A DNA stretch of 64,000 nt, taken from positions 138,322,001-138,386,000 of the forward strand of contig OX597817.1 in NCBI GenBank assembly GCA_951406725.2, read 5' to 3'. How positions within the stretch are numbered: position 1 is the first letter of the stretch; every line of letters begins with the position of its first letter. This DNA is from Octopus vulgaris. Lineage: Eukaryota. Below are positions 2,321 to 46,248 of the stretch, one piece after another. A program made the position numbers and the translations under genes. The notes beneath the pieces are model-generated. The model did no database searches, was not told where the DNA came from, and saw nothing but the letters and a program-made list of their open reading frames with translations.

Positions 2321-5300
2321 TTTTGAATAATATGACCAAGTCTTAAATGCATCTTTCCAAACTATTGACTGAAATTGGAAATATCAACCAATGAAATCCA
2401 ATATCCAAAAAGGGTTATAATGGATTTAAAGGTTTATGATACTTGTGGATTATCTCCTTCTCCCATTGTAATTATTTCTATAGTCTTAAGAAGTTTACAA
2501 GCAGAGTACAATTCAATAGTCATTTATTATTAGTTCTCATTCATGTTGTTTGCTCTCAGTGACCATGTTTATGGCAGCGCATGGTTCGTTATAGCTCTGC
2601 ATACATGAGGTTCATTACCTCTGGAGATATTCAGTGAAGTTAGAGTGGGATAAGAGTCTGCTGTGAGCTGCCAATTTTGCAGTGTATCTCAGCGTAAGTG
2701 AGAAGGAAAAAAGAGAAAAAATGTCTTAATTCTCCTGCTTAAATAGTCGTTGTCGACATGAGTCTCACTGTCGTCTTGTGCATGGCAAATGGTTGCAGGA
2801 GAGATCTCATTCCAGTCTCGGACATGGTAATGGCTACAGGCAAGTTCCCATACAAAATGGCGCTGGCTTCTTGTGCCTCGCTACAGGGTCATATGTCCAC
2901 AGTATGACACAACTTTCTCTTCATATTTTATGGTCATTTACCTACCTCATCTTTTAGATTTCACTAGTCTTTGATGTTCACAAACACCATCCTTTATTGA
3001 CTTCACATTCCTCCTTTTGTTGAGAGTTCCTTCATACGCTACCAAATTCAGAAGTAGAGAGTCACAGCATCGCATTGTGATCAAACTACTTCATTGTCTG
3101 ATGTTTTAACCATTATAACCATTGCATAAATTAAGTTCATAGCAGTTATCTGCTAACTTATCCCAGAAATTTTTGTCTCAGGTTTGATAAAATATTTACA
3201 TAAAAGAGGTTGAGACAGGATTTGAACTCCTAACTCATAAAAGCTTCACCAGAAATGACTACTCAAAGAGACCCATGGGTTGGAGGGTTGTCACCTGAGT
3301 GGGGCAAAGGTGCCATCTGCCAAATATAAAAGGGATTCACCAACAAACAGTGGATGTAGTGATGTGCTGTTGCTGTGTCTTCCTCACTTTTAGTACCAGA
3401 GTTCAAAAGTGAGTGACCTTTGAAATTGAAACAATCAAAATGGCTGTGTGAACAATTAATAATGCAGAGAAGTTTATTATTGTTTCATCCCTCCACCTAC
3501 CATGCTTGCATGGTTGGTGGTGGTGGGAGTAAGAAGTTTGCTTCATGGCTACTTGGTTTCGGGTTCAATTCTTCTGTGTGGAACTTTGGGCAGGTGTCTT
3601 CTACCATAGTTGCTGATGGATCAAAATCTTGTGAGTGGTTTAGTAACCACCAAGAACCACACCTGTTCTTAGGTTTCTTAATCTGTTGCTTAATACAGCA
3701 TTACAATTTAGTTACTGAGTGACTTTAGCAGGATCCACCCTGTTGTACCCATTTGTGCCAAGTCAACAGGGTGCTGCTTCTGGCCCAATTCCTGGAAAAG
3801 GGTCAGAGGCACTACCCTTCCATAAAAAAGCAAAATGAATAAAGTACCTATGTAAGTTCTCTTGGCATAGATGTGATACAAACAAGATGAGGACAAATAT
3901 CCATCAAATGTAAATAATGTGCATAATTCCTCATCTCTTGAATATAGAATTGTATTATACATGATGATATCTGTCCACTTGTGGCCAAAGAAGACCATCA
4001 CTGACCATTGCCTGTGCAAAATACCAGCAATGCTTGTGCACCAGCATTTGGCTTCATCTGGGTTAGCGTCCGCAGTCTCCCTGCTTCCTGTGGAAGCCTC
4101 CTACTTCTTGACCAGGCATTGGATGGGTGCGTCACTGGTAATTGCACAACCAAAAATTTTAGATCCATTACAGCTGGCACAGCACCCCACAGACTCTCTC
4201 CACTCTGCTCACATGATCCACACATTCATAATACATACATACATTACTTACATCGCCAGACCTCAGTTAAATCGTCCAACCCATGCTAGCATGGAAAGCA
4301 GACGTTAAATGATGATGATGATGATGATGATGATATACATACATACATACATCTATACATACATGTATCCTTTAAACTGCATCCAGTTGTGGGGCCCTGT
4401 TTTGGAGTTCCAGGGTTTTGGGGAGTGAGGAACCACCCCTTAGCACCCTATTGCTCCCAGGTCTACTTTCACCTGGAGCAGTAGCACCTGTCAGAATCTC
4501 AGCTATGGGTTATTTAGCATCTCATAGAATTAGCTCTGGAAGAAGGTCACTCAGGGACCCCCCTCCCTCAACAAGCCCCAATACAGATGTGACCCTTCAG
4601 CTCTCTAGTTGCTTATCATAGAGAAGGTCACTCCATAGAAATCCTGCATGTTGATATCTACTGGGCTTGTGGCCCCTGATACTCTACCAGACCACTGCAA
4701 GTTTGAAGAACAAGACTAGATCTACCCAAACCATGTCCACCATAATAATAAAACTCTGCCATCTTGTGAGTTATTTTTTTGAGTAAACTCATACAGAATA
4801 TTCAAAGGGCTGGACCCTAAGGCAGATCATCATCATCATCACTTAATGTCCATGTTTTATGCTAGCATAGGCCAACAGTTTGATGGGACGTGATGGCCTC
4901 ATGGGACTGTTTGGCTTGGTTTCTATGGTTGGGTGCCCTTCCTAACGCCAACCATTTTAGAGTGTGAATTGGGTGCACTTTTCTTATGCCACCAGCATTA
5001 GTGAGGTCAGCATACAGCTTGCATGACTAAGAAACTAGAGAGGGGTGGGGAACTTTATGCTAGGAAAATAAGGAATAGAGAGGGGTCAAGTATGAGGAAA
5101 AAGGGGCTGAAACAAAGTGGGTTTCTTGCTGAAGAGAAGCTACAAAAACTCACACATTTTAGAGGAGAGGGGCAAGCTGTAAATTGGGGATGTGGTGTCA
5201 AAGTGGACTGTCAAGGTACAGGGAGGGTAGGAATGAGTGGTGGGGGTCTAGGGATGAGTGGGAGGGGGTGTAAGGGATGTCTGGTGCAAACAGTAAAATA

Positions 5301-6258: not shown

Positions 6259-9200
6259 CATCATCATCATCATCATCATCATTTAACGTCCGCTTTCCAT
6301 GCTAGCATGGGTTGGACGGTTCAACTGGGGTCTGGGGAGCCCGAAGGCTGCACCAGGCCAGTCAGATCTGGCAGTGTTTCTACAGCTGGATGCCCTTCCT
6401 AACGCCAACCACTCCGAGAGTGTAGACGAGGCTGGCGAACGGCCACGCTCGGATGGTGTTTTTATGTGCCACCGACACAGGTGCCAGACGAGGCTGGCGA
6501 ACGGCCACGTTCGGATGGTTTTCTTGTGTGCCACCGGCACTGGTACCACAAAGATACAAATTCCATTGATGTTCATCTATTTTGATTTGATTTGATTTGA
6601 TTCTTGCCGGGTCTTCGGATGGTGCTTTTATGTGCCACCGACACAGGTGCCAGATGAGGCTGGCGAACGACCACGATCGGATGGTGTTTGTTATGAGCCC
6701 ACAGCATAGAGGCCAGTCGATGCGGTACTGGCTACGGCTATGTTCGGATGGTTATCTTGTGTGCCACCGGCACTGGTACCACAAAGATACAAATTCCATT
6801 GATGTTCATCTATTTTGATTTGTTTTGATTTGATCACTTGCCTCAACAGGTCTTCACAAGTGTCACAAGAAGGAAGGTATGCACAGGCGGACTGACTACG
6901 TCCCAGGTAGGGGCCACGGGTTATGGCCTGACTAGTCTTGCCGGGTCTTCAGATGGTGTTTTTATGTGCCACCGACACAGGTGCCTGATGAGGCTGGCGA
7001 ACGGACATGATCGGATGGTGTTTGTTACGTGCCCACAGCACGGAGGCCAGTCGATGCGGTACTGGCTACGGCCACGTTCGGATTGTTTTCTTGTGTGCCA
7101 CTGGCACTGGTACCATAAAGACACAAATTCCATTGATGTTCATCTATTTTATTTTGATTTTCACTTTCACTTGCCTCAAAAGGTCTTCACAAGTGTCACA
7201 AGAAGGAAGGTATGCACAGGTGGACTGACTACGTCCCAGGTTGGGGCCACGGATTATGGCCTGACTAGTCTTGCCGGGTCTTCGGATGGTGTTTTTATGT
7301 GCCACCGACACAGGTGCCGGATGAGGCTGGCGAACGGCCACGATCGGATGGTGTTTGTTACGTGCCCACAGCACAGAGGCCAGTCGATGCGGTACTGGCT
7401 ACGGCCACGTTCGGATGGTTTTCTTGTGTGCCACCGGCACTGGTACCACAAAGATACAAATTCCATTGATATTCATCTATTTCGATTTGTTTTGATTTTT
7501 TTGATTTTTTTTTTTTTTTTTTTTTTTTGATTTTCACTTGCCTCAACAGGTCTTCACAAGTGTCACAAGAAGGGAGGTATGCACAGGTGAACTGACTACG
7601 TCCCAGGTAGGGGCCACGGGTTATGGCCTGACTAGTCTTGCCGGGTCTTCGGATGGTGTCTTTATGTGCCACCGACACAGGTGCCAGATGAGGCTGGCGA
7701 ACGGCCACGATCGGATGGTGTTTGCTATGTGCCCACAGCACGGAGGCCAGTCGATGCGGTACTGGCTACGGCCACGTTCGGATGGTTTTCTTGTGTGCCA
7801 CCGGCACTGGTAACAAAGATACAAATTCCATTGATGATCATCTATTTTATTTTGATTTTCACTTTCACTTGCCTCAACAGGTCTTCACAAGTGTCACAAG
7901 AAGGAAGGTATGCACAGGTGGACTGACTACGTCCCAGGTAGGGGCCACGGGTTATGGCCTGACTACTCTTGCCGGGTCTTCTCACGCACAGCATACTTCC
8001 ATAGGTCTCGGTCTCTAGTCATTTCCTTGGTGAGACCTAAAGTTCGAAGGTCGTGCTTCACCACCTCGTCCCAGGTTTTCCTGGGTCTACCTCTTCCACA
8101 GGTTCCCTCAACTGCTAGGGTGTAGCACTTTTGCACACAACTATCTACAGCCATTCTCGTCACATGACCATACCAGCGCAGCCGTCTCTCTTGCACACCA
8201 CAATTGACGCTTCTTAGGTTCAACTTTTCTCTCAAGGTACTTACACTCTGACGATTATGAACACTGACATTACACATCCATCGGAGCATACTGGCTTCAT
8301 TTCTTGCAAGCTTACGCATATCCTCAGCAGTCACGGCCCATGTTTCACTACCATGTAGCATGGCTGTACGTACACATGCATCATACAGTCTGCCTTTTAC
8401 TCTGAGCGAGAGGCCTTTTGTCACCAGCAGGGGTAAGAGCTCTCTAAACTTTGCCCAAGCTATTCTTACTCTAGCAGTTACACTTTCAGCACACCCACCC
8501 CCGCTACTGACTTGGTCTCCTAGGTAGCGGAAGCTATCAACTACTTCTAGTTTGTCTCCCTGGAACGTGGTAGAAGTTGGTCTCTGCACATTTCCAGTGT
8601 TTATTGCTCCTGAGCATCTGCCACAGACAAAAACTATTTTCCTAGTTAGCCTTCCTTTGACATTGCTGCACCTCTTATGTGTCCATAGCTTACACTTGGT
8701 GCACCTTATAGAGTTTCTACCTACACCTTTTTTACAGATCGAGCAGGGCCATCTACCTGAAGTCGTTTGTGATTGGTCCACCTTCCTACTTATTAGGACT
8801 TTGGTTTTGGCTAGGTTGATTCTAAGGCCCTTCGATTCTAATCCTTGTTTCCACACCTGAAACTTCTCCTCCAGTTCTGATAGTGACTCAGCAATTAGAG
8901 CAAGGTCGTCAGCATAGAGGAGCTCCCAGGGGCATCCTGTCTTGAATTCCTCCGTTATTGCCTGGAGGACTATGATAAATAGGAGGGGACTGAGGACTGA
9001 ACCTTGGTGGACCCCAACCTCTACCCGGAATTCTTCACTGTACTCGTTGCCAACCCTCACCTTACTAGCAGCGTCTCTGTACATGGCTTGCACAGCTCTC
9101 ACTAACCATTCATCTATCCCTAGTTTCCTCATTTACCACCAGATAAGGGATCGGGGGACCCTGTCAAAGGCTTTCTCCAAGTCAACAAAAGCCAGGTACA

Positions 9201-30000: not shown

Positions 30001-31438
30001 TAAAAAGTGTCATTGTCAAGGCTTAGATGTTAGTAAACCAGAGTTGAGTGTACGTTTTCACTTGCTCTTATTATTATTATTATTATTATTATTAATCTTG
30101 GCTAAGGCAGCAAGCTGGGCAATTTCATGTTGTTTACATTTCTGAGTTTGATGCAAAATGCCACCAAGGTCCACTTTGCCCTTAAATCTTTTCAGATCGA
30201 TGTAATCAACTTGCCCTTCCTCCTCCTAAATTGCTGGCCTTGTGCCAAAATTTGAAACCGTTTGTATTGATTGTGGTTAAATTTTTGCATAAATTTTAGA
30301 ATATGTTTTTAAATAATGAGAAACAAATCAACTGTGAAAGGACGAAAGGCAAAGTTGACTTCAGGTGGAATTTGAACTCAGAACGTAAAGATGGATTAAA
30401 GTGCTGCCAAGCATTTTGCCTGGCATTCTAACAATTCTGCCCACTTGCTACTTCAATGATGATGATGATAATAATAATAATAATATTAATAATAATAATG
30501 GATTGATTTAATGGGAAGCATCAGTTTTGGCCTGCTTATTATTTTACCGTCTCATTCGTTTGTGAGGAACATGCAAGTAATTTAGGATCACTGTTGTGTG
30601 TGTGTATTTAAGTATATGTCTTTCTCTCTGTTTCATATAAGATAGACAAGTTGGGACTGCATGTTTTACCTTCAGAGGCAATGAAAGACTAAATTTAAAA
30701 TCCCAGTCAAATAAATATTGATGAGTTTTATTCCTCTAACTGTCATGCTTCCACCATCGCTAAGTGTTTCACTGTTTTCAGTAAGTTGATACACACATAC
30801 ATGCATGTGCACAAGTGCGCACACATACACACTTAGATTTGGTAACAATTTGTGAACAAGAATAGTCATTAATAATTTAATAGCCTATCAAAGCTATTAA
30901 CCCATTAGCGTTCAGAATAATTTGTCAAAAGTAATCCTTATTTATTCACATTGAAAAAAATTTATCTGATATGATTTTGTAGCTTCAAAATAGGAAAGAT
31001 GTAATTGCTTATTTTTAGAATGACATTGCAGGGTAGGTGTGAGATGCTGGTTCTGGCCAGTTTGAGCATAAAATGTGTAGAATATTTGGGTCCAATCGGT
31101 TTAAACACTAAAACGTTAATGTAACTCCAGTTTAAATTCTTTATTTTTTCCAAATGAATTGAGGCAAAAGCAATGCTTTTCAACAGAAAAATGCTATCAA
31201 AAGAGTTTCGGTAAAAGTTGAGTGAAACATTGAGATCTGCAGAGGAGTCGAATCTAGAAGTTTGGAGTAGAATACCAAGTACAAAGTCTGGTTTTAATGA
31301 AGCACAACGATATAGAAATTGCTGGGACTGGCTTTTGTAGCATTGTTAAAAAGTTAGGCTTCTGTATGTTTGAGCACTGTAAAATAAAATAAATTGTGAC
31401 CAAATTTTGTTAAAGAATATTAAAAACTGAAGACTTAC

Positions 31439-32436: not shown

Positions 32437-32929
32437 AATAACAATGATAGCAATTTTAAAAAACTATTTTTATCTTGGATAGTATCTGAAGAGAAATATT
32501 TAAATAAACTCCTGTTGAAATTAATAATAGTAATAATGATGATGATGATGATAATGAAGAGTTAATGAATTAGTTATAACTAGAAATGGTTTTCTTTTGG
32601 GCTTCTGATTTTTCATGTGTAGGTTGAAGTGGAGTTGGTTCCCTCCTGCCTCTCTCCCCTGATTTGGATTAGTAGTAATCCAAATCTATATTTATTGTGA
32701 CTACTTGAACCTCTACTGGTGCTTATTTTCAGTTTCCTCAACCGAGCCAAAAAGGGTATTTAACTTTGTGTATAAAGGAGGGAACTTAGCTAGCTAGCAG
32801 CAGCAGGGTTCTATCGTTTGCCCTATGGCTCACACATATTCGAAATATATGTTTAATAAACTATGTATTTATGGTGTTTATTCAGGCTGTTTTCATAACT
32901 TTTTATTTCCAGACTTCTAGTTCCACAAC

Positions 32930-32966
32930 ATGGCCAAGTCAAAGAATCATACAAATCATAATCAAA
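32930..32966 (+). CDS. RPL29: 60S ribosomal protein L29 (eL29), first coding exon
   Basis: Encodes MAKSKNHTNHNQ plus 1 nt, the diagnostic eL29 N-terminus. Acceptor TTTTATTTCCAG at 32912 and donor GTGAGT at 32967. Confidence 0.95.
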
Positions 32967-33506
32967 GTGAGTTTCGTTTTATTTATTTCTTTCTATGTTA
33001 ATCGTTGTTTTGTTTTTTCTACTGTTGTTTAGAATTTGACTTGTATTTTCTCTGTGTCTGTCTCCCCCAATGTTGGGTCTGGATGAGTTCATTTCGTCTG
33101 ACCCAAGCAAGTAGGGGTCAGATAGAATTTCTTGGAGCAGATTTTGTGCAGCCAGTTGCCCTTCTTGTCACCAATTCTCACCAGTTCCCCAAGTATGGTA
33201 ACATTCCTCATGGCTCAGGCATGTTTTTCATGGAACTCCGAAAACAAAAAACACAGCTTGTGTGATGATGATGATGATGATGAGCATTTACAACCATCAT
33301 ATGATGTCTAGACTAGGGTACACATACACACACATCCACCAAATCCTCTCACAAGTCTTTGGTAGCAGATGCTTGCCCAAGTGACATGCTGAGGGACAGA
33401 GTCCCAAACCCACATGGATATACAGTTTGGGTACAAGTTTCTCAACCATACCTTCATCTTTAGTTGTTTAAACATTTGGTTTGCTCTTAATTTCCCACTT
33501 TTGCCT

Positions 33507-33645
33507 ATCTCCAGCCACGGAGGGTAGCCTCTCTAATGGCTACACCTCTGCCAGTAACATTTACCGGAGATGACATCAAATCCTGGATAGGAAGCATTTC
33601 AGTCATACATTGACTGTGGTGTGCCGTTTAACCCCAGGGACACTA
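33507..33645 (+). ncRNA. Box H/ACA snoRNA, SNORA65/snR34-like, copy 1 of 15
   Basis: Hairpin (ATCTCC/GGAGAT; GTAGCC/GGCTAC), ANANNA hinge, hairpin (TCCTGG/CCAGGG; CAGTCA/TGACTG), then ACA. Guides GCCAC+GCCAGT and GATAGGAA+GCCG. Confidence 0.88.
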
Positions 33646-34200
33646 GCAATGACTTCCAGCTAAATCCTATAATTTTAGTTAGTGCAATAAATTTAGATTT
33701 GATTTTAATAGGCTTTAAAAAGACTATTTTAGGGATCAACAAATTTGAGCAGGGCTTTAGGGGTACATTCCGGGGAACTGTTCCCCTTTTCCCCCTATTT
33801 ATACATAGTTTACACCACTTTTTAAAGCAAATATTACAATGCTTGGGTTGTTTTGTAAATAATTGATTCCTGTATTTTCGATTTAGTATCCTTCGTTTAA
33901 AATTAAGACTTACAACCAAAACCATTGCTGCTATGGTCATCTCTCATAATTCAGACAAGATAATGTAGTTCTAGATATGCTATCCTTCAGTTTAGTATGA
34001 TTTGAATGAGTTTTGGGTGTTATTTCTAGCATGTTGGTCTGATTTAGTATTAGTGAATGTTTATTTGGTTTACAAGATTTCATCTTTGGAAAGTTCCAGT
34101 TGAATACTGGGGTTGATGTAATTGATTCACCTCCTCCAAGACTGCTGCCCTTCTTACAGAATTTGAAACCATTGTTATTTTGATTCATTTTTATTGCAAC

Positions 34201-34339
34201 ATCTCCAGCCACGGAGGGTAGCCTCTCCAATGGCTACATCTCTGCCAGTAACATTTATCGGAGATGACATCAAATCCTGGATAGGAAGCATTTCAGTCAC
34301 ACATTGACTGTGGTGTGCCGTTTAACCCCAGGGACAGTT
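34201..34339 (+). ncRNA. Box H/ACA snoRNA, SNORA65/snR34-like, copy 2
   Basis: Same core. Guides at 34208-34212, 34244-34249, 34280-34287 and 34317-34320. ACA at 34334-34336. Confidence 0.88.
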
Positions 34340-35409
34340 TATCATTTTGTCTTTGGAAATTGTTTCATGGAAATGGTTCTGTGCTGAAGAAGTCCATTCC
34401 TTCGAGATAGTTTTTAGATGAGGTAACTCTTGTATAGACTTGTGTTGACGAATGGCTTGTAAGTGGAAATGCAACTGTTGTGGAGGTTCATCTGTGTGTG
34501 TTTAAACTCTGGTATCCTTGGTAACTCGTAATTTTTGCAGTTAAATAAATAGATCAGTAAAATAAGTCCTCAAAGCAGTATTATTGATGAAATCCCTCAA
34601 AGATAGACTCCTTGCATGATCACAGATCTCATGCATTTTGTCCTTTTAGGATGTGTTGTGGTCTTGTGTGTCAACAGCTTCATTTGAGCCTGGTCGTATG
34701 TAATATCTAGTGTGGGTTGGCAGGTGGAGGGTAGTGAGGTTTGGTAGCTTTTCACGGGATTACAATATTTAGTTAAACAACAAATTGATGTAGGTCATCG
34801 TCATTTAACATCCGCTTTCCGTGTTGGCAATGGTTGGATGGCTTGACTGAGGGCTGGCAAGCCAGAAGGCTGCACCAGGCTCCAATCTGATCTGGCAGTG
34901 TTTCTACAGCTGGATGCCCTTCCTAACACCAACCATCCTGAAAGTGCAGTGGGTACTTTTTACGTGCCATCGGCATGAGGACCAGTCAGGCGGTACTGGC
35001 ATCGATAGATGTTTATATTAACAGCAATGACCATTGTGTAATTACATTTATAAAATTCACATTTTAAATTAATTTTTACTTAGAATGGGGTACGTTAGCT
35101 GGGCTGCATAGAGATGTCAAATGCCTGTTTAATCCTTTAGCATCTCGAATTACTCTGTCAAATGTAATGCTTATTTATTCATTTTATTTTCAACTGATCA
35201 TATCTTGTAGCATTGATATTTCGGTGATGTGATTGTATACTCTCAAAATAGCATTGTAGGGTAGGTGGGAGATGTAGGATCTGGCCAGGTTGAACTTAAA
35301 ACAGAATAATTTGGCTGGATTAAATGCTAATGGGTTAAAGTTGGTCAAATCTCTTATAGTAACTTGCACTTGTCCATCCCATGTCTATTCCCGTCTATTT
35401 TATTGCAAC

Positions 35410-35550
35410 ATCTCCAGCCACGGAGGGTAGCCCCCTCTAATGGCTACATCTCTGCCAGTAACATTTATCGGAGATGACATCAAATCCTGGATAGGAAGCA
35501 TTTCAGTCACACATTGGACTGTGGTGTGCCGTTTAACCCCAGGGACACTA
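35410..35550 (+). ncRNA. Box H/ACA snoRNA, copy 3 (two 1-nt insertions)
   Basis: Same core with an extra C in loop 1 and an extra G in upper stem 2. ACA at 35545-35547. Confidence 0.82.
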
Positions 35551-36084
35551 GCGATGACTTTTAGCTAAATCCTATAATTTTAGTTAGTGCAATAAATTGA
35601 GAATTGATTTTAATAGGCTTTAAAAAGACTATTTTAGGGATCAACAAATTTGAGCAGGGCTTTATGGGTACATTCCAGGGAACTGTTTCCCCTTTCCCCC
35701 TATTTATACATAGTTTACACCACTTTTTAAAGCAAATATTACAATGCTTGGGTTGTTTTATAAATAATTGATTCCTGTATTTTCAATTCAGTATCCTTTG
35801 TTTAAAATTAAGACTTAAACCAAAACCATTGCTGCTATGGTCATCTCTTATAATTCAGACAAGATTATGTAGTTCTAGATACACTATCCTTGAGTTTTGG
35901 CTGTTATCTCTAGCATGTTGGTCTGTTTTAGTATTAGTGAGTGGTTATTTGGTTTACAAGATTTCATCTTTAGAAAGTACCAGTTGAATACTGGGGTTGA
36001 TGTAATTGATTCACCTCCTCCAAGACTGCTGCCCTTTTTACAGAATTTGAAACCATTGTTATTTTGATTCATTTTTATTGCAAC

Positions 36085-36223
36085 ATCTCCAGCCACGGAG
36101 GGTAGCCTCTCCAATGGCTACATCTCTGCCAGTAACATTTATCGGAGATGACATCAAATCCTGGATAGGAAGCATTTCAGTCACACATTGACTGTGGTGT
36201 GCCGTTTAACCCCAGGGACACTA
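36085..36223 (+). ncRNA. Box H/ACA snoRNA, copy 4
   Basis: Same core. ACA at 36218-36220. Confidence 0.88.
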
Positions 36224-36726
36224 GCGCTGACTTTCAGCTAAATCCTATAATTTTAGTTAGTGCAGTAAATTTTGAGATTTGATTTTAATAAGGCTTTAAA
36301 AAACCTTTAGTAGCAATATTCCAGTGAACTGTTTCCCGTTCCCCCCTATTTATACATACACCACTTTTTAAAGCAAATATTACAATACTTGGGTTGTTTT
36401 ATAAATAATTGATTCCTGGATTTTCAATTCAGTATCCTTTGTTTAAAATTAAGACTTACAACCAAAATCCTTGCAGCTATGGTCATCTCTTATAATTCAG
36501 ACAAGATTATGTAGTTCTAGATACACTATCCTTGAGTTTTGGCTGTTATCTCTAGCATGTTGGTCTGATTTAGTATTAGTGAGTGGTTATTTGGTTTACA
36601 AGATTTCATCTTTAGAAAGTACCAGTTGAATACTGGGGTTGATGTAATTGATTCACCTCCTCCAAGACTGCTGCCCTTCTTACAGAATTTGAAACCATTA
36701 TTATTTTGATTCATTTTTATTGCAAC

Positions 36727-36865
36727 ATCTCCAGCCACGGAGGGTAGCCTCTCTAATGGCTACATCTCTGCCAGTAACATTTACCGGAGATTACATCAAA
36801 TCCTGGATAGGAAGCATTTCAGTCACACATTGACTGTGGTGTGCCGTTTAACCCCAGGGACACTA
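36727..36865 (+). ncRNA. Box H/ACA snoRNA, copy 5
   Basis: Same core. Hinge variant AGATTACATCA still fits ANANNA. ACA at 36860-36862. Confidence 0.88.
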
Positions 36866-37368
36866 GCGCTGACTTTCAGCTAAATCCTATAATTTTAGTT
36901 AGTGCAGTAAATTTTGAGATTTGATTTTAATAAGGCTTTAAAAAACCTTTAGTAGCAATATTCCAGTGAACTGTTTCCCTTTCCCCCCTATTTATACATA
37001 CACCACTTTTTAAAGCAAATATTACAATACTTGGGTTGTTTTATAAATAATTGATTCCTGGATTTTCAATTCAGTATCCTTTGTTTAAAATTAAGACTTA
37101 CAACCAAAATCCTTGCAGCTATGGTCATCTCTTATAATTCAGACAAGATCATGTAGTTCTAGATACACTATCCTTGAGTTTTGGCTGTTATCTCTAGCAT
37201 GTTGGTCTGATTCAGTATTAGTGAGTGGTTATTTGGTTTACAAGATTTCATCTTTAGAAAGTACCAGTTGAATACTGGGGTTGATGTAATTGATTCACCT
37301 CCTCCAAGACTGCTGCCCTTCTTACAGAATTTGAAACCATTATTATTTTGATTCATTTTTATTGCAAC

Positions 37369-37508
37369 ATCTCCAGCCACGGAGGGTAGCCTCTCTAATG
37401 GCTACATCTCTGCCAGTAACATTTATCGGAGATGACATCAAATCCTGGATAGGAAGCATTTCAGTCACACATTGACTGTGGTGTGCCGTTTAACCCCCAG
37501 GGACACTA
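37369..37508 (+). ncRNA. Box H/ACA snoRNA, copy 6
   Basis: Same core with one extra C before AGGG. ACA at 37503-37505. Confidence 0.85.
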
Positions 37509-38012
37509 GCGCTGACTTTCAGCTAAATCCTATAATTTTAGTTAGTGCAGTAAATTTTGAGATTTGATTTTAATAAGGCTTTAAAAAAACCTTTAGTAGC
37601 AATATTCCAGTGAACTGTTTCCCTTTCCCCCCTATTTATACATACACCACTTTTTAAAGCAAATATTATAATACTTGGGTTGTTTTATAAATAATTGATT
37701 CCTGGATTTTCAATTCAGTATCCTTTGTTTAAAATTAAGACTTACAACCAAAATCCTTGCAGCTATGGTCATCTCTTATAATTCAGACAAGATTATGTAG
37801 TTCTAGATACACTATCCTTGAGTTTTGGCTGTTATTTCTAGCATGTTGGTCTGATTCAGTATTAGTGAGTGGTTATTTGGTTTACAAGATTTCATCTTTA
37901 GAAAGTACCAGTTGAATACTGGGGTCGATGTAATTGATTCACCTCCTCCAAGACTGCTGCCCTTCTTACAGAATTTGAAACCATTATTATTTTGATTAAT
38001 TTTTATTGCAAT

Positions 38013-38151
38013 ATCTCCAGCCACGGAGGGTAGCCTCTCTAATGGCTACATCTCTGCCAGTAACATTTACCGGAGATGACATCAAATCCTGGATAGGAAG
38101 CATTTCAGTCATACATTGACTGTGGTGTGCCGTTTAACCCCAGGGACACTA
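38013..38151 (+). ncRNA. Box H/ACA snoRNA, copy 7
   Basis: Same core. ACA at 38146-38148. Confidence 0.88.
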
Positions 38152-38717
38152 GCGCTGACTTTCAGCTAAATTTTATAATTCAGTTTGTGTAATAAATTGA
38201 AGTGGATGACTTGTTTTCAGTCCTGTTCCTTCGAATTGAGCTACCTGTCTGAGATCACACCTGGTTCTATGTTGGAAACTTTTGCATAAATTAACGTCTT
38301 CATAAAAAAAAAAGCCTTGTTAATTTGTTTCAAATATTGCCTTAATGAGTTAGGTAGTGTATTTCCTCTGAAAGATAGTTAAAAAAAAAGTATTAAAAAC
38401 TGGTCAGGGAAATAAAAAGAAGAAAAAAACTTAGAATAATTAGTCATTAAGATAATTGTATTTATGAGTTTCCCAGTGTTTTCCATTGTGGCTGTGACCA
38501 TTTTTTATTCCAGACCAGATTAATGTAATTTTAGATACCAACTTCAATTTAGTGTGAATGAACAACTACTGGCCTTAATCAGTAAAAATGTTTAGTTTAT
38601 GGAAATCTTTAATTAGAATGATCACAATTAGATTACAAATTCCTCTGTTTGTCAAATGTCCAATAGTAACTTCTTTGTCTTGTGTTCCATGTCTATTCCC
38701 ATCTGATTTACTGAAAG

Positions 38718-38856
38718 ATCTCCAGCCACGGAGGGTAGCCTCTCTAATGGCTACATCTCTGCCAGTAACATTTACAGGAGATGACATTAAATCCTGGATA
38801 GGAAGCATTTCAGTCATACATTGACTGTGGTGTGCCGTTTAACCCCAGGGACATAG
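38718..38856 (+). ncRNA. Box H/ACA snoRNA, copy 8
   Basis: Same core with hinge ACATTA. ACA at 38851-38853. Confidence 0.88.
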
Positions 38857-39569
38857 CTTGTAGATTCTCTAACTTTTCTCTGAATCATTTCAGAAGTAGT
38901 GAATAAATTATTTTAAAATATTCACTTTTCCTAATGACTTAAGTATTGTTAATGTGTGTTTCAGGTGCTGATGTCCTTCATAGGAATGTATTGTTGGCTT
39001 TTCAATCCAGTTACTTTGAACTGTTTATCATAACTCTTGCTAATTTCATAGGTCTACAAATAATAGTCTAGGTCCGAAATAACTTTTCTCTTGATTTTAG
39101 CCATTAATGTGTTCTTCTATGAATTGAATCAAAAGAAATTCTACAACTCTTGTAGGCTGCTGCTGATTAGCCCTTGTGGCTAATAAAAGAATTATTATTA
39201 TTATACTAACGTTAACTTGTTTCAGTCTTGATAAGGATGTGAGTTGCAAAGAGATGTCAATTTTTGTCTGTTTAATCCTTTTAGCATTTGACCTGGCCAA
39301 AACTTTCTGCCTGTTTCAGAATAACATTGTCGGGGTAGAAGTGAGAGTTCGGTAATATCTGGCCTCTCACACCTACCTTGCAATGTCATTCTAAAATCCT
39401 CAATCATATCATTCACATCTTAAAGCTACGAGATAATGCATGGTTAATTCCAAACAATACGAATAGATTGACATTACATTGGACTTGAATAATCTGAATG
39501 CTTAAGAGTGATGCTTTGTTAGGTGTCCTGTATAGTAACTTCTATTCTGCTGTCTTGTTTTATTGCAGC

Positions 39570-39708
39570 ATCTCCAGGCACGGAGGGTAGCCTCTCTAAT
39601 GGCTACATCTCTGCCAGTAACATTTACCGGAGATGACATCAAATCCTGGATAGGAAGCATTTCAGTCACACATTGACTGTGGTGTGCCGTTTAACCCCAG
39701 GGACACTA
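39570..39708 (+). ncRNA. Box H/ACA snoRNA, copy 9 (altered 5' guide)
   Basis: Same core but GCCAC changed to GGCAC. ACA at 39703-39705. Confidence 0.83.
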
Positions 39709-40494
39709 ACGATGATTTTCAGCTAAATCCTATAATTTTAGTTAGTGCAATAAATTTAGATTTGATTTTAATAGGCTTTAAAAAGACTTTTTTAGGGATC
39801 AACAGATTTGAGCAGGGCTTTATGGGTACATTCCAGGGAACTGTTTCCCCTTTCCCTCTATTTATACTTAGTTTACACCACTTTTTAAAGCAAATATTAC
39901 AATGCTTGGGTTGTTTTGTAAATAATTGATTCCTGTATTTTCAACAACAATCAATCATTAAATAATTGTATTTATGAGTTTCCTCAAGTTTTTCAATTCA
40001 GTATCCTTTGTTTAAACTTAAGACTTACAACCAAAACCATTGCAGCTATGGTCATCTCTCATAATTCAGACAAGATAATGTAGTTCTAGATACACTATCC
40101 TTCAGTTAAGTATGATTTGAATGAGTTTTGGTGTTATTTCTAGCATGTTGGTCTGATTCAGTATTAGTGAATGGTTATTTGGTTTACAAGATTTCATCTT
40201 TAGAATATTTAAGGTTTATCAACTGCTTCCTTTTACATATTATCATTATTATTATTATTATTTGCAAGCTGGCAGTATTGTTAGCGTGCCAGACGAAATG
40301 CTTAGCAGTATTTTCATTTGTTCTGAGTTCAAATTCCACCGAAGTCGACTTCACCTTTCATCCTTTCGTTGTTGATAAAATAAGTACCAGTTGACTACTG
40401 GGGTTGATGTAATTGACTCATCTGCTCCTCCAAAATTGTTGCTGTTGTGGACAAATTTGAAACCATTGTTATTTTGATTTGTTTTTATTGCAAC

Positions 40495-40633
40495 ATCTCC
40501 AGCCACGGAGGGTAGCCCCTCTAATGGCTACATCTCTGCCAGTAACATTTACCGGAGATGACATCAAATCCTGGATAGGAAGCATTTCAGTCATACATTG
40601 ACTGTGGTGTGCCGTTTAACCCCAGGGACATAG
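40495..40633 (+). ncRNA. Box H/ACA snoRNA, copy 10
   Basis: Same core. ACA at 40628-40630. Confidence 0.88.
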
Positions 40634-41249
40634 TTTAGTTCAAGCAGTGATAAGTACAGCAGTTTGATTCAATTACAATATTTTTTTACAGAAGATTCCA
40701 AGGTATATTTATCCTTAGGTACACTTGTGGCTGTGTGGTATTTAGGTTTCCTTCACAACCGCATGGTTTCTGGTTCAATCCTGCAGCATGGTACTTTTGC
40801 CATTATGTATGTGCACTAGTCTCATTGTATTGATATCACTGAGTCTGACAGTTTGACAAGACCTGGCAAGTCAGTAGATTGTATTAGGCTCTGCTGTCTG
40901 ATTTACACACACACACACATCAGTGGCACTCCATCAGTTGTAATGACGAATGTTCCAGTTGATTTGATCAACTGTACAGCCTGCTTGTGACTGACCACTC
41001 CACAGACACAAGTACCCTTAACGGAGATTCAGCATGACATGAGTATGAAAAGGCTGGCCCTTTGAGCTACTGGTACAACTCATTTTTGCCACCTGAGTGG
41101 CCTGGAGCAATGTGAAATGAAGTGTCTTGCTCAAGGATATAGAGGGCTGCTGGGAATTGAACTCCTGACCTTACAATCAAGAGTCAGATACCCTCACCAT
41201 TAAATCATCACAAAATGTGTGTTTACATACATGTTGGTGATACTGATGA

Positions 41250-41640
41250 TGATGTGACTAATGGTTGGTAGCTCCCCCTACTGGCTTTCGGCTTCATTCG
41301 CCTGGCTTGTCTGCTCATGACCTGCTCAAGTGCAACTTTCTTGATAAAGACTGCAGCTGGTTGATCTCTCAGGAGCAAAACCCATAACTGGATTAATGCT
41401 AAAATCTTTTCTGCAGTCTTGTAGAATTTGTGCTGTGACATCCACACCACCAAACGTTCTTTTCTCAATCATTCTGGCAAATGTGACCTGACAAGTGTCA
41501 TTGAGGTGGGCAACAGGAATGGACTCAATGTTTTTGGGTTTTGTCGTATCAACTTCAAGTACAGCAGCCAGCATTGTCAGTTCAGATGTGATTCAACTTG
41601 ATGTGCTTGTGAAGTGTCAGTTTCTGGTGTACAGCAAAGT
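41250..41640 (-). mobile_element. Degenerate 3' end of an RTE/BovB-like LINE
   Basis: Frameshifted KDFSINP...RDQP..FIKK residues resemble RTE C-termini. Weak similarity by eye only. Confidence 0.4.
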
Positions 41641-41756
41641 GTGTGTGTCGGGTGGGGGGTGGGGCAACAACTCCATAGGTCTTTGACTTGTCTAAGATGA
41701 GATACACAACAAACAAGCATTGTACATTGTATGAAGTAAGTCTATATTATGGCAAC

Positions 41757-41895
41757 ATCTCCAGCCACGGAGGGTAGCCTCTCTTATGGCTACATCTCTG
41801 CCAGTAACATTTACCGGAGATGACATCAAATCCTGGATAGGAAGCATTTCAGTCACACATTGACTGTGGTGTGCCGTTTAACCCCAGGGACAGTT
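41757..41895 (+). ncRNA. Box H/ACA snoRNA, copy 11
   Basis: Same core in largely unique flanks. ACA at 41890-41892. Confidence 0.88.
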
Positions 41896-42681
41896 TATCA
41901 TTTTATCTTCAGATGCTAATGTCTCACGAAATTTGAAGTGATTTAGTTTTCTGTTAAAGGACTTGCTGCAGAAATGGTTCCATGCTGATGAAGTCCATTC
42001 TTACTAGACAATGATAAGGGCAGCTATCTTCTAGTATAGAGACTTTGGAGGTTAACATTGGAATTTGATGGATAATAAAAGAAACCAATGTTGTGAGGTT
42101 GACATAATTGTCTAAGACCTTTATGGTGGAGCTTGGCCACTGTCTAAATGAGTGAAATGGATCAAAGAAATAAAAGAATTATTTCAGTTGATAATCCCAG
42201 CTTGGCTGTAGATAGAAGCTTAGATGCTTAACCAGGGAGTAACATTGGATGCGTATTGACAGATCTGTGTTGGAAGATGTAATGCTATGAAAGCATTGTA
42301 GCTTCTAACTTGATACTATTTTGTAGCAACATGTCTGTTGGTTTCATCCACCTTGGATTTAAATGCATCATCATCATCATCATGAACATAATAAACAACA
42401 TTTAGGCTGTACACTTAATGTGTGTGGAAAGAAAGATCCTTTGTTTGGTGAACCAGATAAAGCTTAGTGCCAAGCAAAAACATTTGAATGTAACACAATG
42501 CAGTCTTGATGTGTACTCACCTAACCCATACCAGTATGGGAAAACAGACATAAAATGAAAAGTTTTTTCCAGACTAAAAAATTTATATTTGTAAATTCTG
42601 ATTTTCTTTCAGCTCTTCTTTAGTTCTGGACACAGGTAGCTGTCAACTTTCTGTGCATTTCAGGTTTTTATCAAATGTTTT

Positions 42682-42820
42682 ATCTCCAGCCATGGAGGGT
42701 AGCCCCTCTAATGGCTACACCTCTGCCAGTAACATTTACCGGAGATGACATCAAATCCTGGATAGGAAGCATTTCAGTCATACATTGACTGTGGTGTGCC
42801 GTTTAACCCCAGGGACACTA
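42682..42820 (+). ncRNA. Box H/ACA snoRNA, copy 12
   Basis: Same core with GCCAC changed to GCCAT (G-U pair with the target). ACA at 42815-42817. Confidence 0.86.
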
Positions 42821-43452
42821 GCACTGACTTTCAGCTAAATCCTATAATCCAGTTTGTGTAATAAATTGAAGTGGATGACTTGATTTCAGTCCTGTTCCTT
42901 CGAATTGAGCTACCTGTCTGAGATCACACCTGGTTCTATGTTAGAAACTTTTACATAAATTAACGTCTTCATTTAAAAAAAACCCTTGTTAATTTGTTTC
43001 AAATATTGCCTTAATGAGTTATTTTCCAAATTAAGCAGAAGCAAGGTAGTGTATTTCCTCTGAAAGATGTTTAAAAAAAAAAGTATTAAAAACTGGTCAT
43101 GGAGATAAAAAGAAAAGCAAAAACTTAGAATAGTTAGTCATTAAGATAATTGTATTTATGAGTTTCCCAGTTTTTCAGTTGAATACTATTTGTTGCATTT
43201 GTGGCTGTGACCATTTTTTTTTTATTCCAGACCAGATTAAAGTAATTCTAGAGACCACCTTCAATTTAGTGTGAATGAACAACTACTAGCCTTATTCAGT
43301 AAAAATGTTGCTTAGTTAAATATTGAAATCTTTAATTAGAATGAGGTACTTGATGACCACAATTAGATTACAAATTCCTTTGTTTGTCAAATGTCCAATA
43401 GTAACTTCTTTGTCTTGTGTTCCATGTCTATTCTCATCTGATTTACTGAAAG

Positions 43453-43591
43453 ATCTCCAGCCACGGAGGGTAGCCTCTCTAATGGCTACATCTCTGCCAG
43501 TAACATTTACCGGAGATGACATTAAATCCTGGATAGGAAGCATTTCAGTCACACATTGACTGTGGTGTGCCGTTTAACCCCAGGGACACTA
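43453..43591 (+). ncRNA. Box H/ACA snoRNA, copy 13
   Basis: Same core with hinge ACATTA. ACA at 43586-43588. Confidence 0.88.
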
Positions 43592-44200
43592 GCACTGACT
43601 TTCAGCTAAATTTTATTATTCAATTTGTGTAATAAATTGATGTGGATGACTTGATTTCAGTCCTGTTCCTTCAAATTGAGCTACCTGTCTGAGATCACAC
43701 CTGGTTCTATGTTAGAAACTTTTACATAAATTAACGTCATCATTAAAAAAAACCCTTGTTAATTTGTTTCAAATATTGCCTTAATGAGTTATTTTCCAAA
43801 TTAAGCAGAAGCAAGGTAGTGTATTAAATATTAAAAACTGCTCAGGAAGATAAAAAGAAGAGCAAAAACTTAAAATAATTAGTCATTTAGATAATTGCAT
43901 TTATGAGTTTCCCAGTGTTTTCCAATTCAATACTATTTGTGGCTGTGGCCATTTTTTTTATTCCAGACCAGATTAAAGTAATTCTAGATACCAACTTCAA
44001 TTTAGTGTGAATGAACAACTACTGGCCTTATTCAGTAAAAATGTTGCTTAGTTTATTATCTACTTAAATATTGAAATCTTTAATTAGAATGAGGTACTTG
44101 ATGATCACAATTAGATTACAAATTCCTCTGTTTGTCAAATGTCCAATAGTAACTTCTTTGTCTTGTGTTCCATGTCTATTCCCATCTAGTTTACTGAAAG

Positions 44201-44339
44201 ATCTCCAGCCACGGAGGGTAGCCTCTCTAATGGCTACATCTCTGCCAGTAACATTTATCGGAGATGACATCAAATCCTGGATAGGAAGCATTTCAGTCAC
44301 ACATTGACTGTGGTGTGCCGTTTAACCCCAGGGACACTA
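44201..44339 (+). ncRNA. Box H/ACA snoRNA, copy 14
   Basis: Same core. ACA at 44334-44336. Confidence 0.88.
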
Positions 44340-45024
44340 GCGTTGACTTTCAGCTAAATTTTATTATTCAATTTGTGTAATAAATTGAGATTTGATCTTA
44401 ATAGGCTTTAAAAAATCCTTTTTAGGGATCAACAGATTTGAGCAGGGCGTTAGGGGTACATTCCAGGGAACCGTTTGCCTTTCCCCCCTATTTATACATA
44501 CACCACTTTTTAAAACAAATATTACAATACTTGGGTTGTTTTATAAATAATTGGCGTTAGGAAGGGCATCCAGCTGTAGAAACATTGCCAGATAAAACTG
44601 GAGCCTGGTGCAGCCTTCTGGCTTCCCAGATCCCCGGTCGAACCGTCCAACCCATGCTAGCATGGAGAATGGACGTTAAACGATGATGATTCCTGGATTT
44701 TCAATTCAGTATCCTTCGTTTAAACTTAAGACTTACAACCAAAACCATTGCAGCTATGGTCATCTCTTATAATTCAGACAAGATAATGTAGTTCTAGATA
44801 CACTATCCTTCAGTTTAGTATGATTTGAATGAGTTCTGGCTGTTATCTCTAGCATGTTGGTCTGATTCAGTATTAGTGAATGGTTATTTGGTTTACAAGA
44901 TTTCATCTTTAGAAAGTACCAGTTGAATACTGGGGTCAATGTAATTGATTCACCTCCTCCAAAACTGCTGCTCTTCTTACAGAATTTAACACACCATTAT
45001 TATTTTCATTTGTTTTATTGCAAC

Positions 45025-45163
45025 ATCTCCAGCCACGGAGGGTAGCCTCTCTAATGACTACATCTCTGCCAGTAACATTTACCGGAGATGACATCAAATC
45101 CTGGATAGGAAGCATTTCAGTCACACATTGACTGTGGTGTGCCGTTTAACCCCAGGGACATGT
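45025..45163 (+). ncRNA. Box H/ACA snoRNA, copy 15
   Basis: Same core with one stem mismatch (GGCTAC to GACTAC). ACA at 45158-45160, about 80 nt upstream of the 3' splice site. Confidence 0.86.
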
Positions 45164-45244
45164 CTTGTGAAGTATTTACATTAGCAACTGGACTTCTGTT
45201 GTTATTATTATTATTTATTCTATGTCCACATTACATTCTTTCAG

Positions 45245-45309
45245 ACAGCAAAGCTCACCGTAATGGTATTTATAGACCGAAAAGATTCAGATGTCCTTCA
45301 ATGAAAGGT
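45245..45309 (+). CDS. RPL29: 60S ribosomal protein L29, second coding exon
   Basis: TTCTTTCAG|AC...GGT|GTAAGT. 65 nt encoding (N)SKAHRNGIYRPKRFRCPSMKG, phase-compatible with both neighbours. Confidence 0.95.
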
Positions 45310-46068
45310 GTAAGTAAACTTATGTTGTCATTAAAAAATTTTTTTTATTTTTTTGATAGCGTTTCTGAATGAATAAGGAAAGATTACAACTGGTATTCCT
45401 TTGGTTGTGCCACCTGTATGTGATCTGGTTGATCTGATCAACAGAGTAACTCGCTTGAGGAATGGATGTGCAACTGGCTGAGCACTCCACAGACATGCAT
45501 AACCCATGATATAGTTCTTAGGTAGACCCAGCATGACACAGAATGGGACAAGACTGGCCCTCTTTGAATTACTGGTACAACTCATTTATGCCAGCTGAGT
45601 GGACTGGAGCAATAAAGTGAAATAAATTGTCTTGTTGAAGGACACAACACACAGACAGGAATTGAACTCACAACCTCATGATTCACCAATAAGAAGTAGC
45701 TGTGAAAGTCTCAAGATTTTGCAGTCTTTAAAAATATTTACATAATTTATTAAGTCTTCATTCTAGACTGTATCTCAGAAGGAAGAATACAATAGTAAAT
45801 CTTGTGGAACCTGTTTAGAATGGGTGGATGATTGCTCCATGGAACTTTCCACATATTTGGGATGGCACTTGTCTATTGAATTCTCCTGCAACTGTTATGC
45901 ATTGTTTTATCCATTTATTTATTAGGAGTAAGTGGTTATCTTGTAAGGAATAATGCCGATATTTTACTGTGATGAAATGTGTGTTGGTTGAGTGGGACTT
46001 GTCAGTTTGGGTGCAGTTTATGAAATGTGTTGTTTTGATTGTTAAAAGTGTAATTGTATCGTTTGCAG

Positions 46069-46248
46069 GTTGACAGGAAGTATCTGAGAAATCTTCGGTT
46101 TGCTCGAAAACACAACAGATTAATTCCAAAAGAAGAGAGGAGAGAGATGCGTGAGGAGAGACACAGAATTAAAATGGCCAAACGAGCTGCTGCCAAAGCT
46201 GAAGCCAAAACTGCAGTAAAGGCCACTTCTACTACTACTACTTCTTAG
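46069..46248 (+). CDS. RPL29: 60S ribosomal protein L29, last coding exon (protein 93 aa)
   Basis: TTTGCAG|GTT. Encodes VDRKYLRNLRFARKHN plus a charged/Ala-rich tail, ending in TAG. Confidence 0.95.
   Translation, partial: VDRKYLRNLRFARKHNRLIPKEERREMREERHRIKMAKRAAAKAEAKTAVKATSTTTTS

What the first reader, a model, noticed from the sequence alone, without database searches (positions are those of the whole stretch)
33507..45163. Fifteen copies of one H/ACA snoRNA (SNORA65/snR34 type) packed into a single RPL29 intron
Seen: a ~139-nt unit recurs 15 times on the sense strand at ~640-1260-bp spacing. It stays almost invariant even where the spacers are unrelated. It folds as hairpin, ANANNA hinge, hairpin, ACA. 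Most substitutions fall in apical loops or unpaired pocket bases, keep the H box, or convert G-U to G-C. Established knowledge: GCCAGU and GCCAC would clamp LSU rRNA ACUGGC-UU-GUGGC (E. coli 2457, yeast Psi2826). GCCG and GAUAGGAA would clamp CGGC-UC-UUCCUAUC (yeast Psi2880). Yeast snR34 and human U65/SNORA65 (hosted in RPL12) guide this pair of peptidyl-transferase-centre sites. Inference: this is a large, selectively maintained polycistronic intronic array. It departs from the vertebrate one-snoRNA-per-intron rule and resembles Drosophila intronic H/ACA clusters. It could raise guide dosage. Caveat: the pocket-to-box spacing (17 nt in hairpin 2, 18 or more in hairpin 1) exceeds the usual 14-16 nt.
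Basis: partly seen in the sequence, partly recalled or inferred. Interest (0 to 1): 0.9.

Follow-up and report, generated by a model that had tools for sequence, protein, structure and literature searches.

The report
Fifteen-copy snoRNA array in one intron
One 12-kb intron of the ribosomal-protein gene RPL29 holds fifteen near-identical tandem copies of a small RNA gene that is predicted to guide two conserved ribosomal RNA modifications, a layout already known from fruit flies but seen here at several genes of this animal's genome.

Summary
Fifteen 136-138-nt cores lie on the sense strand of one 12,278-nt RPL29 intron. They differ by about 2%, while homologous spacers differ by about 6%. Substitutions avoid stems, guides and boxes (8 of 12 in 40 of 136 free positions, p=0.008). 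Both pockets match this genome's 28S perfectly at two uridines 54 nt apart, the spacing of the yeast snR34 targets. SNORA65 is the best Rfam match but far below its cut-off (19.9 against 70 bits). Pocket-to-box distances are atypical (17 nt; 18 or 23 nt). The unit is not dispersed: one decayed copy lies elsewhere.

Two corrections. Most spacers are related (10 of 14 in two families), so this is a tandem-duplicated array with signs of exchange between copies; selection is shown for the array, not for each copy. It is also less unusual than scored: Drosophila has same-family intronic H/ACA clusters of similar size (17 entries in Arpc2), and this genome has other arrays (five U18 in one RPL4 intron, seven tandem U14). 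Expression, release of single copies, guide activity and a dosage benefit are untested.

The parts
32913..32966 (+). RPL29 exon with the start codon (ATG at 32930)
   Evidence: sequence; in run X17 the letters before 45245 match the end of this exon at 29 of 30
32967..45244 (+). RPL29 intron, 12,278 nt, GT..AG, holding the whole array
   Evidence: direct exon-to-exon join in one contig of X17
33507..33645 (+). copy 1 of the H/ACA-like unit (end = ACA + 3, predicted)
34201..34339 (+). copy 2
35410..35550 (+). copy 3 (two extra bases, one in the stem of hairpin 2)
36085..36223 (+). copy 4
36727..36865 (+). copy 5
37369..37508 (+). copy 6 (one extra C, pocket 2 to ACA 18 nt)
38013..38151 (+). copy 7, used as reference: pocket 1 GCCAC 38020-38024 and GCCAGT 38056-38061; H-box candidates AGATGA 38074-38079 and ACATCA 38079-38084; pocket 2 GATAGGAA 38092-38099 and GCCG 38129-38132; ACA 38146-38148
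38718..38856 (+). copy 8
39570..39708 (+). copy 9 (mismatch in the 5' strand of pocket 1)
40495..40633 (+). copy 10
41757..41895 (+). copy 11
42682..42820 (+). copy 12 (wobble in the 5' strand of pocket 1)
43453..43591 (+). copy 13
44201..44339 (+). copy 14
45025..45163 (+). copy 15 (one broken pair in upper stem 1; ACA ends 84 nt before the 3' splice site)
45245..45309 (+). RPL29 coding exon after the array
   Evidence: Pfam PF01779; joint 45309-46069 GT..AG in X17
46069..46248 (+). RPL29 last coding exon to the stop codon

Best explanation
The RPL29 intron carries fifteen tandem copies of one two-hairpin RNA gene that likely works as the snR34/SNORA65-type H/ACA guide of this animal and is predicted to direct pseudouridylation of two 28S uridines near the peptidyl-transferase centre. 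Shown: the array, its place in one intron, perfect pocket matches to the genome's own 28S, spacers descended by tandem duplication, and purifying selection on the core. Inferred: unequal crossing-over grew the array and gene conversion swaps variants between copies, so harmful changes stay in single copies while harmless ones spread. Inferred by analogy with fly clusters: H/ACA proteins bind each copy in the transcribed intron, and cuts in the spacers followed by trimming release separate RNAs of about 139 nt. The long pocket-to-box distances would be absorbed by looping out unpaired bases. Pocket 2 is the more likely to work; pocket 1 is less certain. The copy number is more likely a by-product of a genome-wide tendency to duplicate intronic snoRNAs locally than a need specific to this guide.
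For: Pocket 1 pairs 6+5 and pocket 2 pairs 4+8, all Watson-Crick, at positions 4132 and 4186 of the genome's own LSU rRNA; shuffled pocket strands did as well anywhere in the rRNA in 2 of 500 and 3 of 500 trials. The 54-nt gap equals yeast 2826 to 2880, the two snR34 sites (PMC11121408, passages). SNORA65 is the top hit of 4227 Rfam families, with CCAGU, UAGGAA, UGCCG and ACA aligned in order. Cores differ by 1.8% against 5.7% in homologous flanks over 45 pairs; random disjoint pair sets give median p 3e-6, 95th percentile 0.005. 8 of 12 substitution sites fall in 40 of 136 unconstrained positions, p=0.008; all 6 variants shared by several copies are benign, the 3 that hit a guide or break a stem are single-copy; 4 of 15 site pairs show all four combinations. 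No other intact copy was found: 16 DNA matches in 2.8 Gb, the 16th decayed, none in the RPL12 region. Human SNORA22 works at 18 nt (PMC6984369, passage). Other arrays in the genome.
Against: No RNA evidence for a discrete product. The Rfam score is 19.9 bits, E 0.65, against a cut-off of 70; the whole-genome Rfam search found nothing. Distances are 17 nt for pocket 2 and 18 or 23 nt for pocket 1 against the usual 14-16 (PMC6800473), and one added base inactivated a human SCARNA15 pocket (PMC5733568). Hairpin 1 varies more than hairpin 2 (10 of 66 against 1 of 64 sites, p=0.009; constrained sites only, 4 of 45 against 0 of 48, p=0.05). No conserved stem that could mark a cleavage site was found in the spacers (5 of 14 spacers folded). 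In the 7 youngest pairs cores are no more conserved than flanks (1.8% against 1.6%). No comparison with another species was obtained.
Confidence: 0.68

Rival explanations
1. The inner copies are not released. Exonucleases trim the spliced intron only to the first and last copy, leaving one H/ACA-capped RNA of about 11.7 kb (a sno-lncRNA) that carries fifteen guide modules.
For: This is what happens when two snoRNAs share an intron in mammals (PMC11028025, passages). No cleavage-type stem was found in the spacers.
Against: Flies annotate same-family clusters as separate snoRNA genes. Five C/D-type U18 copies share one RPL4 intron here too, which suggests a general release route.
Confidence: 0.12
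2. The array is one-snoRNA-per-intron in disguise: an alternative RPL29 transcript uses short non-coding exons in the spacers.
For: A crude scan finds an acceptor-donor pair in 6 of 14 spacers, four of them in one spacer family. An earlier scan note describes such a layout for a similar RNA in another genome (e1-7834970, unchecked).
Against: About 4.9 of 14 are expected from shuffled spacers, and 8 of 14 spacers have none. One contig of run X17 joins the flanking exons directly.
Confidence: 0.08
3. The unit is a recently amplified tandem repeat of a guide that is now largely a passenger; gene conversion alone keeps the cores alike and only one or two copies matter.
For: Signs of exchange between copies; spacers 4-6 nearly identical; 5 of 15 copies carry a guide, stem or spacing change; long pocket-to-box distances.
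Against: Conversion without selection would not sort variants into loops (p=0.008) nor keep the damaging ones single-copy. Similarity stops exactly at the first stem and at the ACA in copies with unrelated flanks.
Confidence: 0.1
4. The copy number is an assembly error.
For: No read or contig spanning the array was seen.
Against: Spacers differ in length and sequence, with insertions of their own. Summed contig depth over the core is about 16 times single-copy depth in X8 and 20-24 times in X6; the tool warns that this is not a copy number, so it is weak support.
Confidence: 0.02

Closest known systems
Yeast snR34 and vertebrate SNORA65/U65 (Rfam RF00302)
   Same: Two pockets that match two LSU uridines 54 nt apart; snR34 guides Psi2826 (E. 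coli Psi2457) and Psi2880 (PMC11121408, passages). Guide motifs align in order to the RF00302 consensus.
   Different: Score far below the family cut-off; pocket-to-box distances of 17 and 18 or 23 nt; 15 tandem copies; host RPL29, with nothing similar found in the RPL12 region. That human SNORA65 lies in RPL12 is recalled.
Drosophila intronic H/ACA clusters (Psi18S-525a-j and Psi18S-640a-g in Arpc2; Psi28S-1135a-f, Psi28S-1192a-d and Psi18S-1854a-c in RpS5a)
   Same: Many same-family H/ACA genes labelled as intronic clusters, also in ribosomal-protein hosts: 17 entries for Arpc2 and 13 for RpS5a (PMC11028025 supplement, 92 of 377 rows seen). [quoted passage not shown]
   Different: Here one family only, 15 copies at about 98% identity, with 0.5-1.1 kb spacers that were duplicated with them. 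The table does not say how many fly copies share one intron, nor their spacing or identity.
Mammalian tandem snoRNA repeats (SNORD113-116) and sno-lncRNAs (SLERT)
   Same: Local tandem amplification with exchange between copies; two snoRNAs in one intron give a capped long RNA (PMC11028025, passages).
   Different: Those repeats are orphan C/D RNAs in repeated introns of non-coding genes; this is an rRNA guide inside a single intron of a protein-coding gene.

Membership tests
Box H/ACA guide snoRNA | Hairpin-hinge-hairpin-tail fold | tested here: met
   4 of 4 copies folded give two hairpins, z -1.5 to -3.6; consensus fold
Box H/ACA guide snoRNA | H box (ANANNA) in the hinge and ACA after hairpin 2 | tested here: met
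   ACAUCA/ACAUUA and the overlapping AGAUGA/AGAUUA are kept in 15 of 15, ACA in 15 of 15; which is the working H box is open
Box H/ACA guide snoRNA | Two-sided pocket complementary to a target around an unpaired uridine | tested here: met
   6+5 and 4+8 Watson-Crick pairs to the genome's own 28S; 2 of 500 and 3 of 500 shuffles as good
Box H/ACA guide snoRNA | Target uridine 14-16 nt from the H or ACA box | tested here: not met
   17 nt for pocket 2, 18 or 23 nt for pocket 1. A second register places the same uridine at 14 nt for pocket 2 but with only 3 pairs on that side, 2 of them G-U. An 18-nt working case is published (PMC6984369). So it is filed as H/ACA-like with atypical geometry
Box H/ACA guide snoRNA | Discrete stable RNA bound by dyskerin, NOP10, NHP2, GAR1 that directs pseudouridylation | not testable with these tools
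   only assembled contigs were offered
SNORA65 (Rfam RF00302) | Score at or above the gathering threshold of 70 bits | tested here: not met
   19.9 and 19.5 bits; no hit at gathering level. It works like SNORA65/snR34 but is not filed in the Rfam family
SNORA65 (Rfam RF00302) | Guides the pair of LSU sites equivalent to yeast 2826 and 2880 | tested here: inconclusive
   Complementarity and the 54-nt spacing fit; yeast or human rRNA was not aligned here, and modification was not measured
Intronic snoRNA cluster (fly type) | Several snoRNA genes share one intron of a host transcript | tested here: met
   15 copies between two coding exons that one contig joins directly; no excess of cryptic exons
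Intronic snoRNA cluster (fly type) | Members are released as separate RNAs | not testable with these tools
   needs raw small-RNA reads
snoRNA-derived dispersed repeat (SINE-like) | Many copies scattered through the genome | tested here: not met
   16 matches in 2.8 Gb: 15 here and 1 decayed copy on C5 (counts are lower bounds)

The most novel reading that the evidence does not exclude
This lineage has switched to fly-like multi-copy introns for both snoRNA classes and releases guides from kilobase-spaced tandem arrays by a spacer-cutting route that does not depend on splice-site distance. At RPL29 the only detected guide for a universally conserved pseudouridine has a stretched geometry, and fifteen-fold amplification makes up for a weak guide.
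Probability: 0.2. Interest if true: 0.7.

Novelty: new member of a known kind. Interest (0 to 1): 0.42.

Why it matters
It extends large same-family intronic snoRNA clusters beyond flies to what is probably a cephalopod (inferred, not tested), and the pattern recurs there for C/D RNAs. The copies are told apart by 12 substitution sites and 3 indels, so one small-RNA data set would show which copies are released from a 12-kb intron; I found no account of how such clusters are cut apart in animals. The guide is also a natural test of the 14-16 nt ruler rule at a universally conserved site, and standard Rfam annotation misses it.

Tried and rejected
Rfam at gathering level over the window: 0 hits. 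Whole-genome search with RF00302: 0, so it cannot show absence of other guides. A loose three-motif pattern gave 91 matches (15 in the array) against 41 for the control; I fetched 18 of the 76 others and none scored with my own model, the other 58 were not examined. RPL12 region, 40 kb: no match by pattern or model. Run search: no RNA holder listed, which is no evidence on expression. The four runs laid were contigs, so no RNA ends could be read; X8 and X6 differ from the window at 3 letters in 704 and 436 nt of mainly intron sequence, so they gave no test between species. X17 had no cover over the candidate cryptic exon of spacer 14, which is not evidence. Metagenome scan: 3 exact 19-nt matches, none scoring with the model. 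Cleavage-type stems in spacers: none shared; the one strong hairpin (39304, z -7.7) resembles an inverted repeat also seen at about 31020 and 35250. U19, U36 and SNORA53 were not detected in the genome, with no positive control; U15 is not tandem. Insertion from mature RNA is unlikely, because the three bases after the ACA differ between copies and spacers were duplicated with the cores. The hairpin-2 shuffle test used a strand off by one and the hairpin comparison used a wrong count; they were redone. Huang et al. 2005 is not held. Paper searches for snoRNA arrays in cephalopods or molluscs and for SNORA65 with snR34 listed nothing on this locus; subscription journals are not covered.
Full report
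Observation. The repeat finder and my own scan give 15 copies of a 136-138-nt core between 33507 and 45160, all on the + strand, 642-1262 nt apart. They lie inside one GT-AG intron of 12,278 nt (32967-45244). The next exon matches Pfam Ribosomal_L29e above its cut-off. In run X17 one contig carries the end of the upstream coding exon directly before 45245 (29 of 30 letters) and joins 45309 to 46069 at GT..AG, so the main transcript removes the array as one intron. Summed contig depth over the core is about 16 times single-copy depth in X8 and 20-24 times in X6; the tool says this is not a copy number, so I count it as weak support against an assembly error.

History of the array. In fact 7 of 14 spacers form one family, 3 of 14 a second, and spacers 4-6 are 98.6-99.4% identical. 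The array grew by tandem duplication of core plus spacer (inferred). Over the 45 of 105 pairs with an alignable flank, cores differ by 1.8% and flanks by 5.7%; in the other 60 pairs cores differ by 2.3%. Random sets of disjoint pairs give a median Fisher p of 3e-6. In the 7 youngest pairs there is no difference (1.8% against 1.6%). Of 12 substitution sites, 8 fall in the 40 of 136 positions that I classed as unconstrained (p=0.008). All 6 variants shared by several copies are benign; the 3 that hit a guide or break a stem are single-copy. Four of 15 site pairs show all four combinations, a sign of exchange between copies. This fits purifying selection on the array as a whole with gene conversion. 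It does not show that each copy is needed: 5 of 15 copies carry a guide, stem or spacing change.

What the unit is. Four of four copies fold as two hairpins. An ANANNA hinge and the terminal ACA are kept in all 15. Rfam gives nothing at gathering level. At a loose threshold SNORA65 is the best of 4227 families, 19.9 bits against a cut-off of 70, with the guide motifs aligned in order. The genome's rDNA carries both target sites exactly (28 matches, 7 of them about 18 kb apart on C20). Against the LSU, SSU and 5.8S of that unit, pocket 1 forms 6+5 and pocket 2 forms 4+8 Watson-Crick pairs around LSU uridines 4132 and 4186. Shuffled strands did as well in 2 and 3 of 500 trials. The 54-nt gap equals that between yeast Psi2826 and Psi2880, both lost on deleting snR34 with two other snoRNAs; snR34 is named as the guide of Psi2826, E. 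coli Psi2457 (PMC11121408, passages). I did not align yeast or human rRNA. The human U65 targets and host are recalled.

The geometry problem. The target lies 17 nt from the ACA in hairpin 2, and 18 nt from AGAUGA or 23 nt from ACAUCA in hairpin 1. The usual range is 14-16 (PMC6800473, passage). One added base inactivated a human SCARNA15 pocket, though the authors call the rule neither essential nor sufficient (PMC5733568, passages). Human SNORA22 works at 18 nt (PMC6984369, passage), and snR34 5' hairpin variants with altered stems kept activity in vitro (PMC5778458, passage). Hairpin 2 has a second register at 14 nt for the same uridine, with 3 pairs on one side, 2 of them G-U. Hairpin 1 varies more than hairpin 2 (10 of 66 against 1 of 64 sites, p=0.009; constrained sites 4 of 45 against 0 of 48, p=0.05). 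I put pocket 2 at about 0.8 and pocket 1 at about 0.6 likely to work, given expression; these are judgements.

Other copies. A DNA search of the 2.8-Gb genome gave 16 matches: the 15 copies and one 74% copy on C5 that has lost guide bases and the ACA. The 40 kb around RPL12 has none. A loose pattern gave 76 further hits; 18 were examined and none scored. The array is the only intact guide of this type that I found, within these limits.

A genome-wide habit. Of 7 other snoRNA families sought, 4 were detected and 3 of those are locally duplicated. Five U18 copies sit in one 6,977-nt RPL4 intron whose flanking exons join in frame, the last about 1.6 kb from the 3' splice site. Seven U14 copies are tandem on C2, one with its D box deleted, cores 0.8% against flanks 7.8% divergent, host exons unknown. 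Two U17 copies share the first RPLP0 intron and a third is in the next. U15 is not tandem; U19, U36 and SNORA53 were not detected. The U18 array is young and shows no core-over-flank conservation (2.9% against 1.9%). This makes a dosage need specific to this guide less likely.

How it likely works. The intron is transcribed with RPL29. H/ACA proteins would bind each copy; spacers would be cut and trimmed to give RNAs of about 139 nt that guide the two modifications. The release step is inferred only by analogy. I found no shared stem in the spacers (5 of 14 folded) and no excess of cryptic exons (6 of 14 against about 4.9 expected). In mammals two snoRNAs in one intron give a long capped RNA instead (PMC11028025, passages and part of the introduction), which remains a rival. 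No raw RNA reads were offered.

Comparison with what is known. Flies often have several snoRNAs per intron (PMC6619189; PMC2780460; passages). The supplement of PMC11028025 lists ten Psi18S-525 and seven Psi18S-640 genes as intronic clusters in Arpc2 and 13 entries in RpS5a (92 of 377 such rows seen, file cut when stored). The layout and roughly the scale are therefore known. The mfl cluster follows one gene per intron (PMC1821038, passages). The giant squid genome paper counts 174 snoRNA loci in 34 families and says nothing on arrays in the two passages seen (PMC6962438). Searches for cephalopod or mollusc snoRNA arrays listed nothing on this locus; Huang et al. 2005 was not held and subscription journals are not covered.

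Verdict. A real, selected array of an atypical snR34/SNORA65-like guide; a new member of the fly-type intronic cluster, with unusual homogeneity, wide spacing and stretched pockets. Interest 0.42.

Noticed in passing
G000:C3:75046383-75053359 (L045, L046): Five U18 (SNORD18) copies in one 6,977-nt RPL4 intron, none near the 3' splice site, each closed by a GCAAAGG/CCTTTGC terminal stem.
   Followed up: partly
L040:2186-6623 (G000:C2:106457186-106461623): Seven tandem U14-like copies, one lacking its D box, plus a decayed eighth near L040:7085; snR56-like and SNORD87-like hits nearby suggest a non-coding host gene.
   Followed up: partly
L037:2114-4140: Three U17 (SNORA73) copies in RPLP0, two in the first intron and one in the second; a SNORD22-like RNA in a later intron.
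   Followed up: partly
L037:6256-8230: In RPLP0 the 3' part of a coding exon is present three times in tandem, with SNORD59-like hits at 6421 and 8078.
   Followed up: no
L016:1500-1630 (G000:C5:25355694-25355817): One decayed copy of the unit, 74% identical, with guide bases and the ACA lost.
   Followed up: yes
window 39304-39404: Strong hairpin (z -7.7) that resembles an inverted repeat also seen near 31020 and 35250, probably a small mobile element.
   Followed up: partly
L042, L043 (G000:C20, rDNA units about 18 kb apart): Long rRNA genes by Rfam bounds: LSU 4892 nt, SSU 2649 nt; 21 further matches to the 28S pattern are scattered over other places.
   Followed up: no
L038:6192-6325: U11 snRNA gene on the - strand about 7 kb behind RPLP0.
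   Followed up: no
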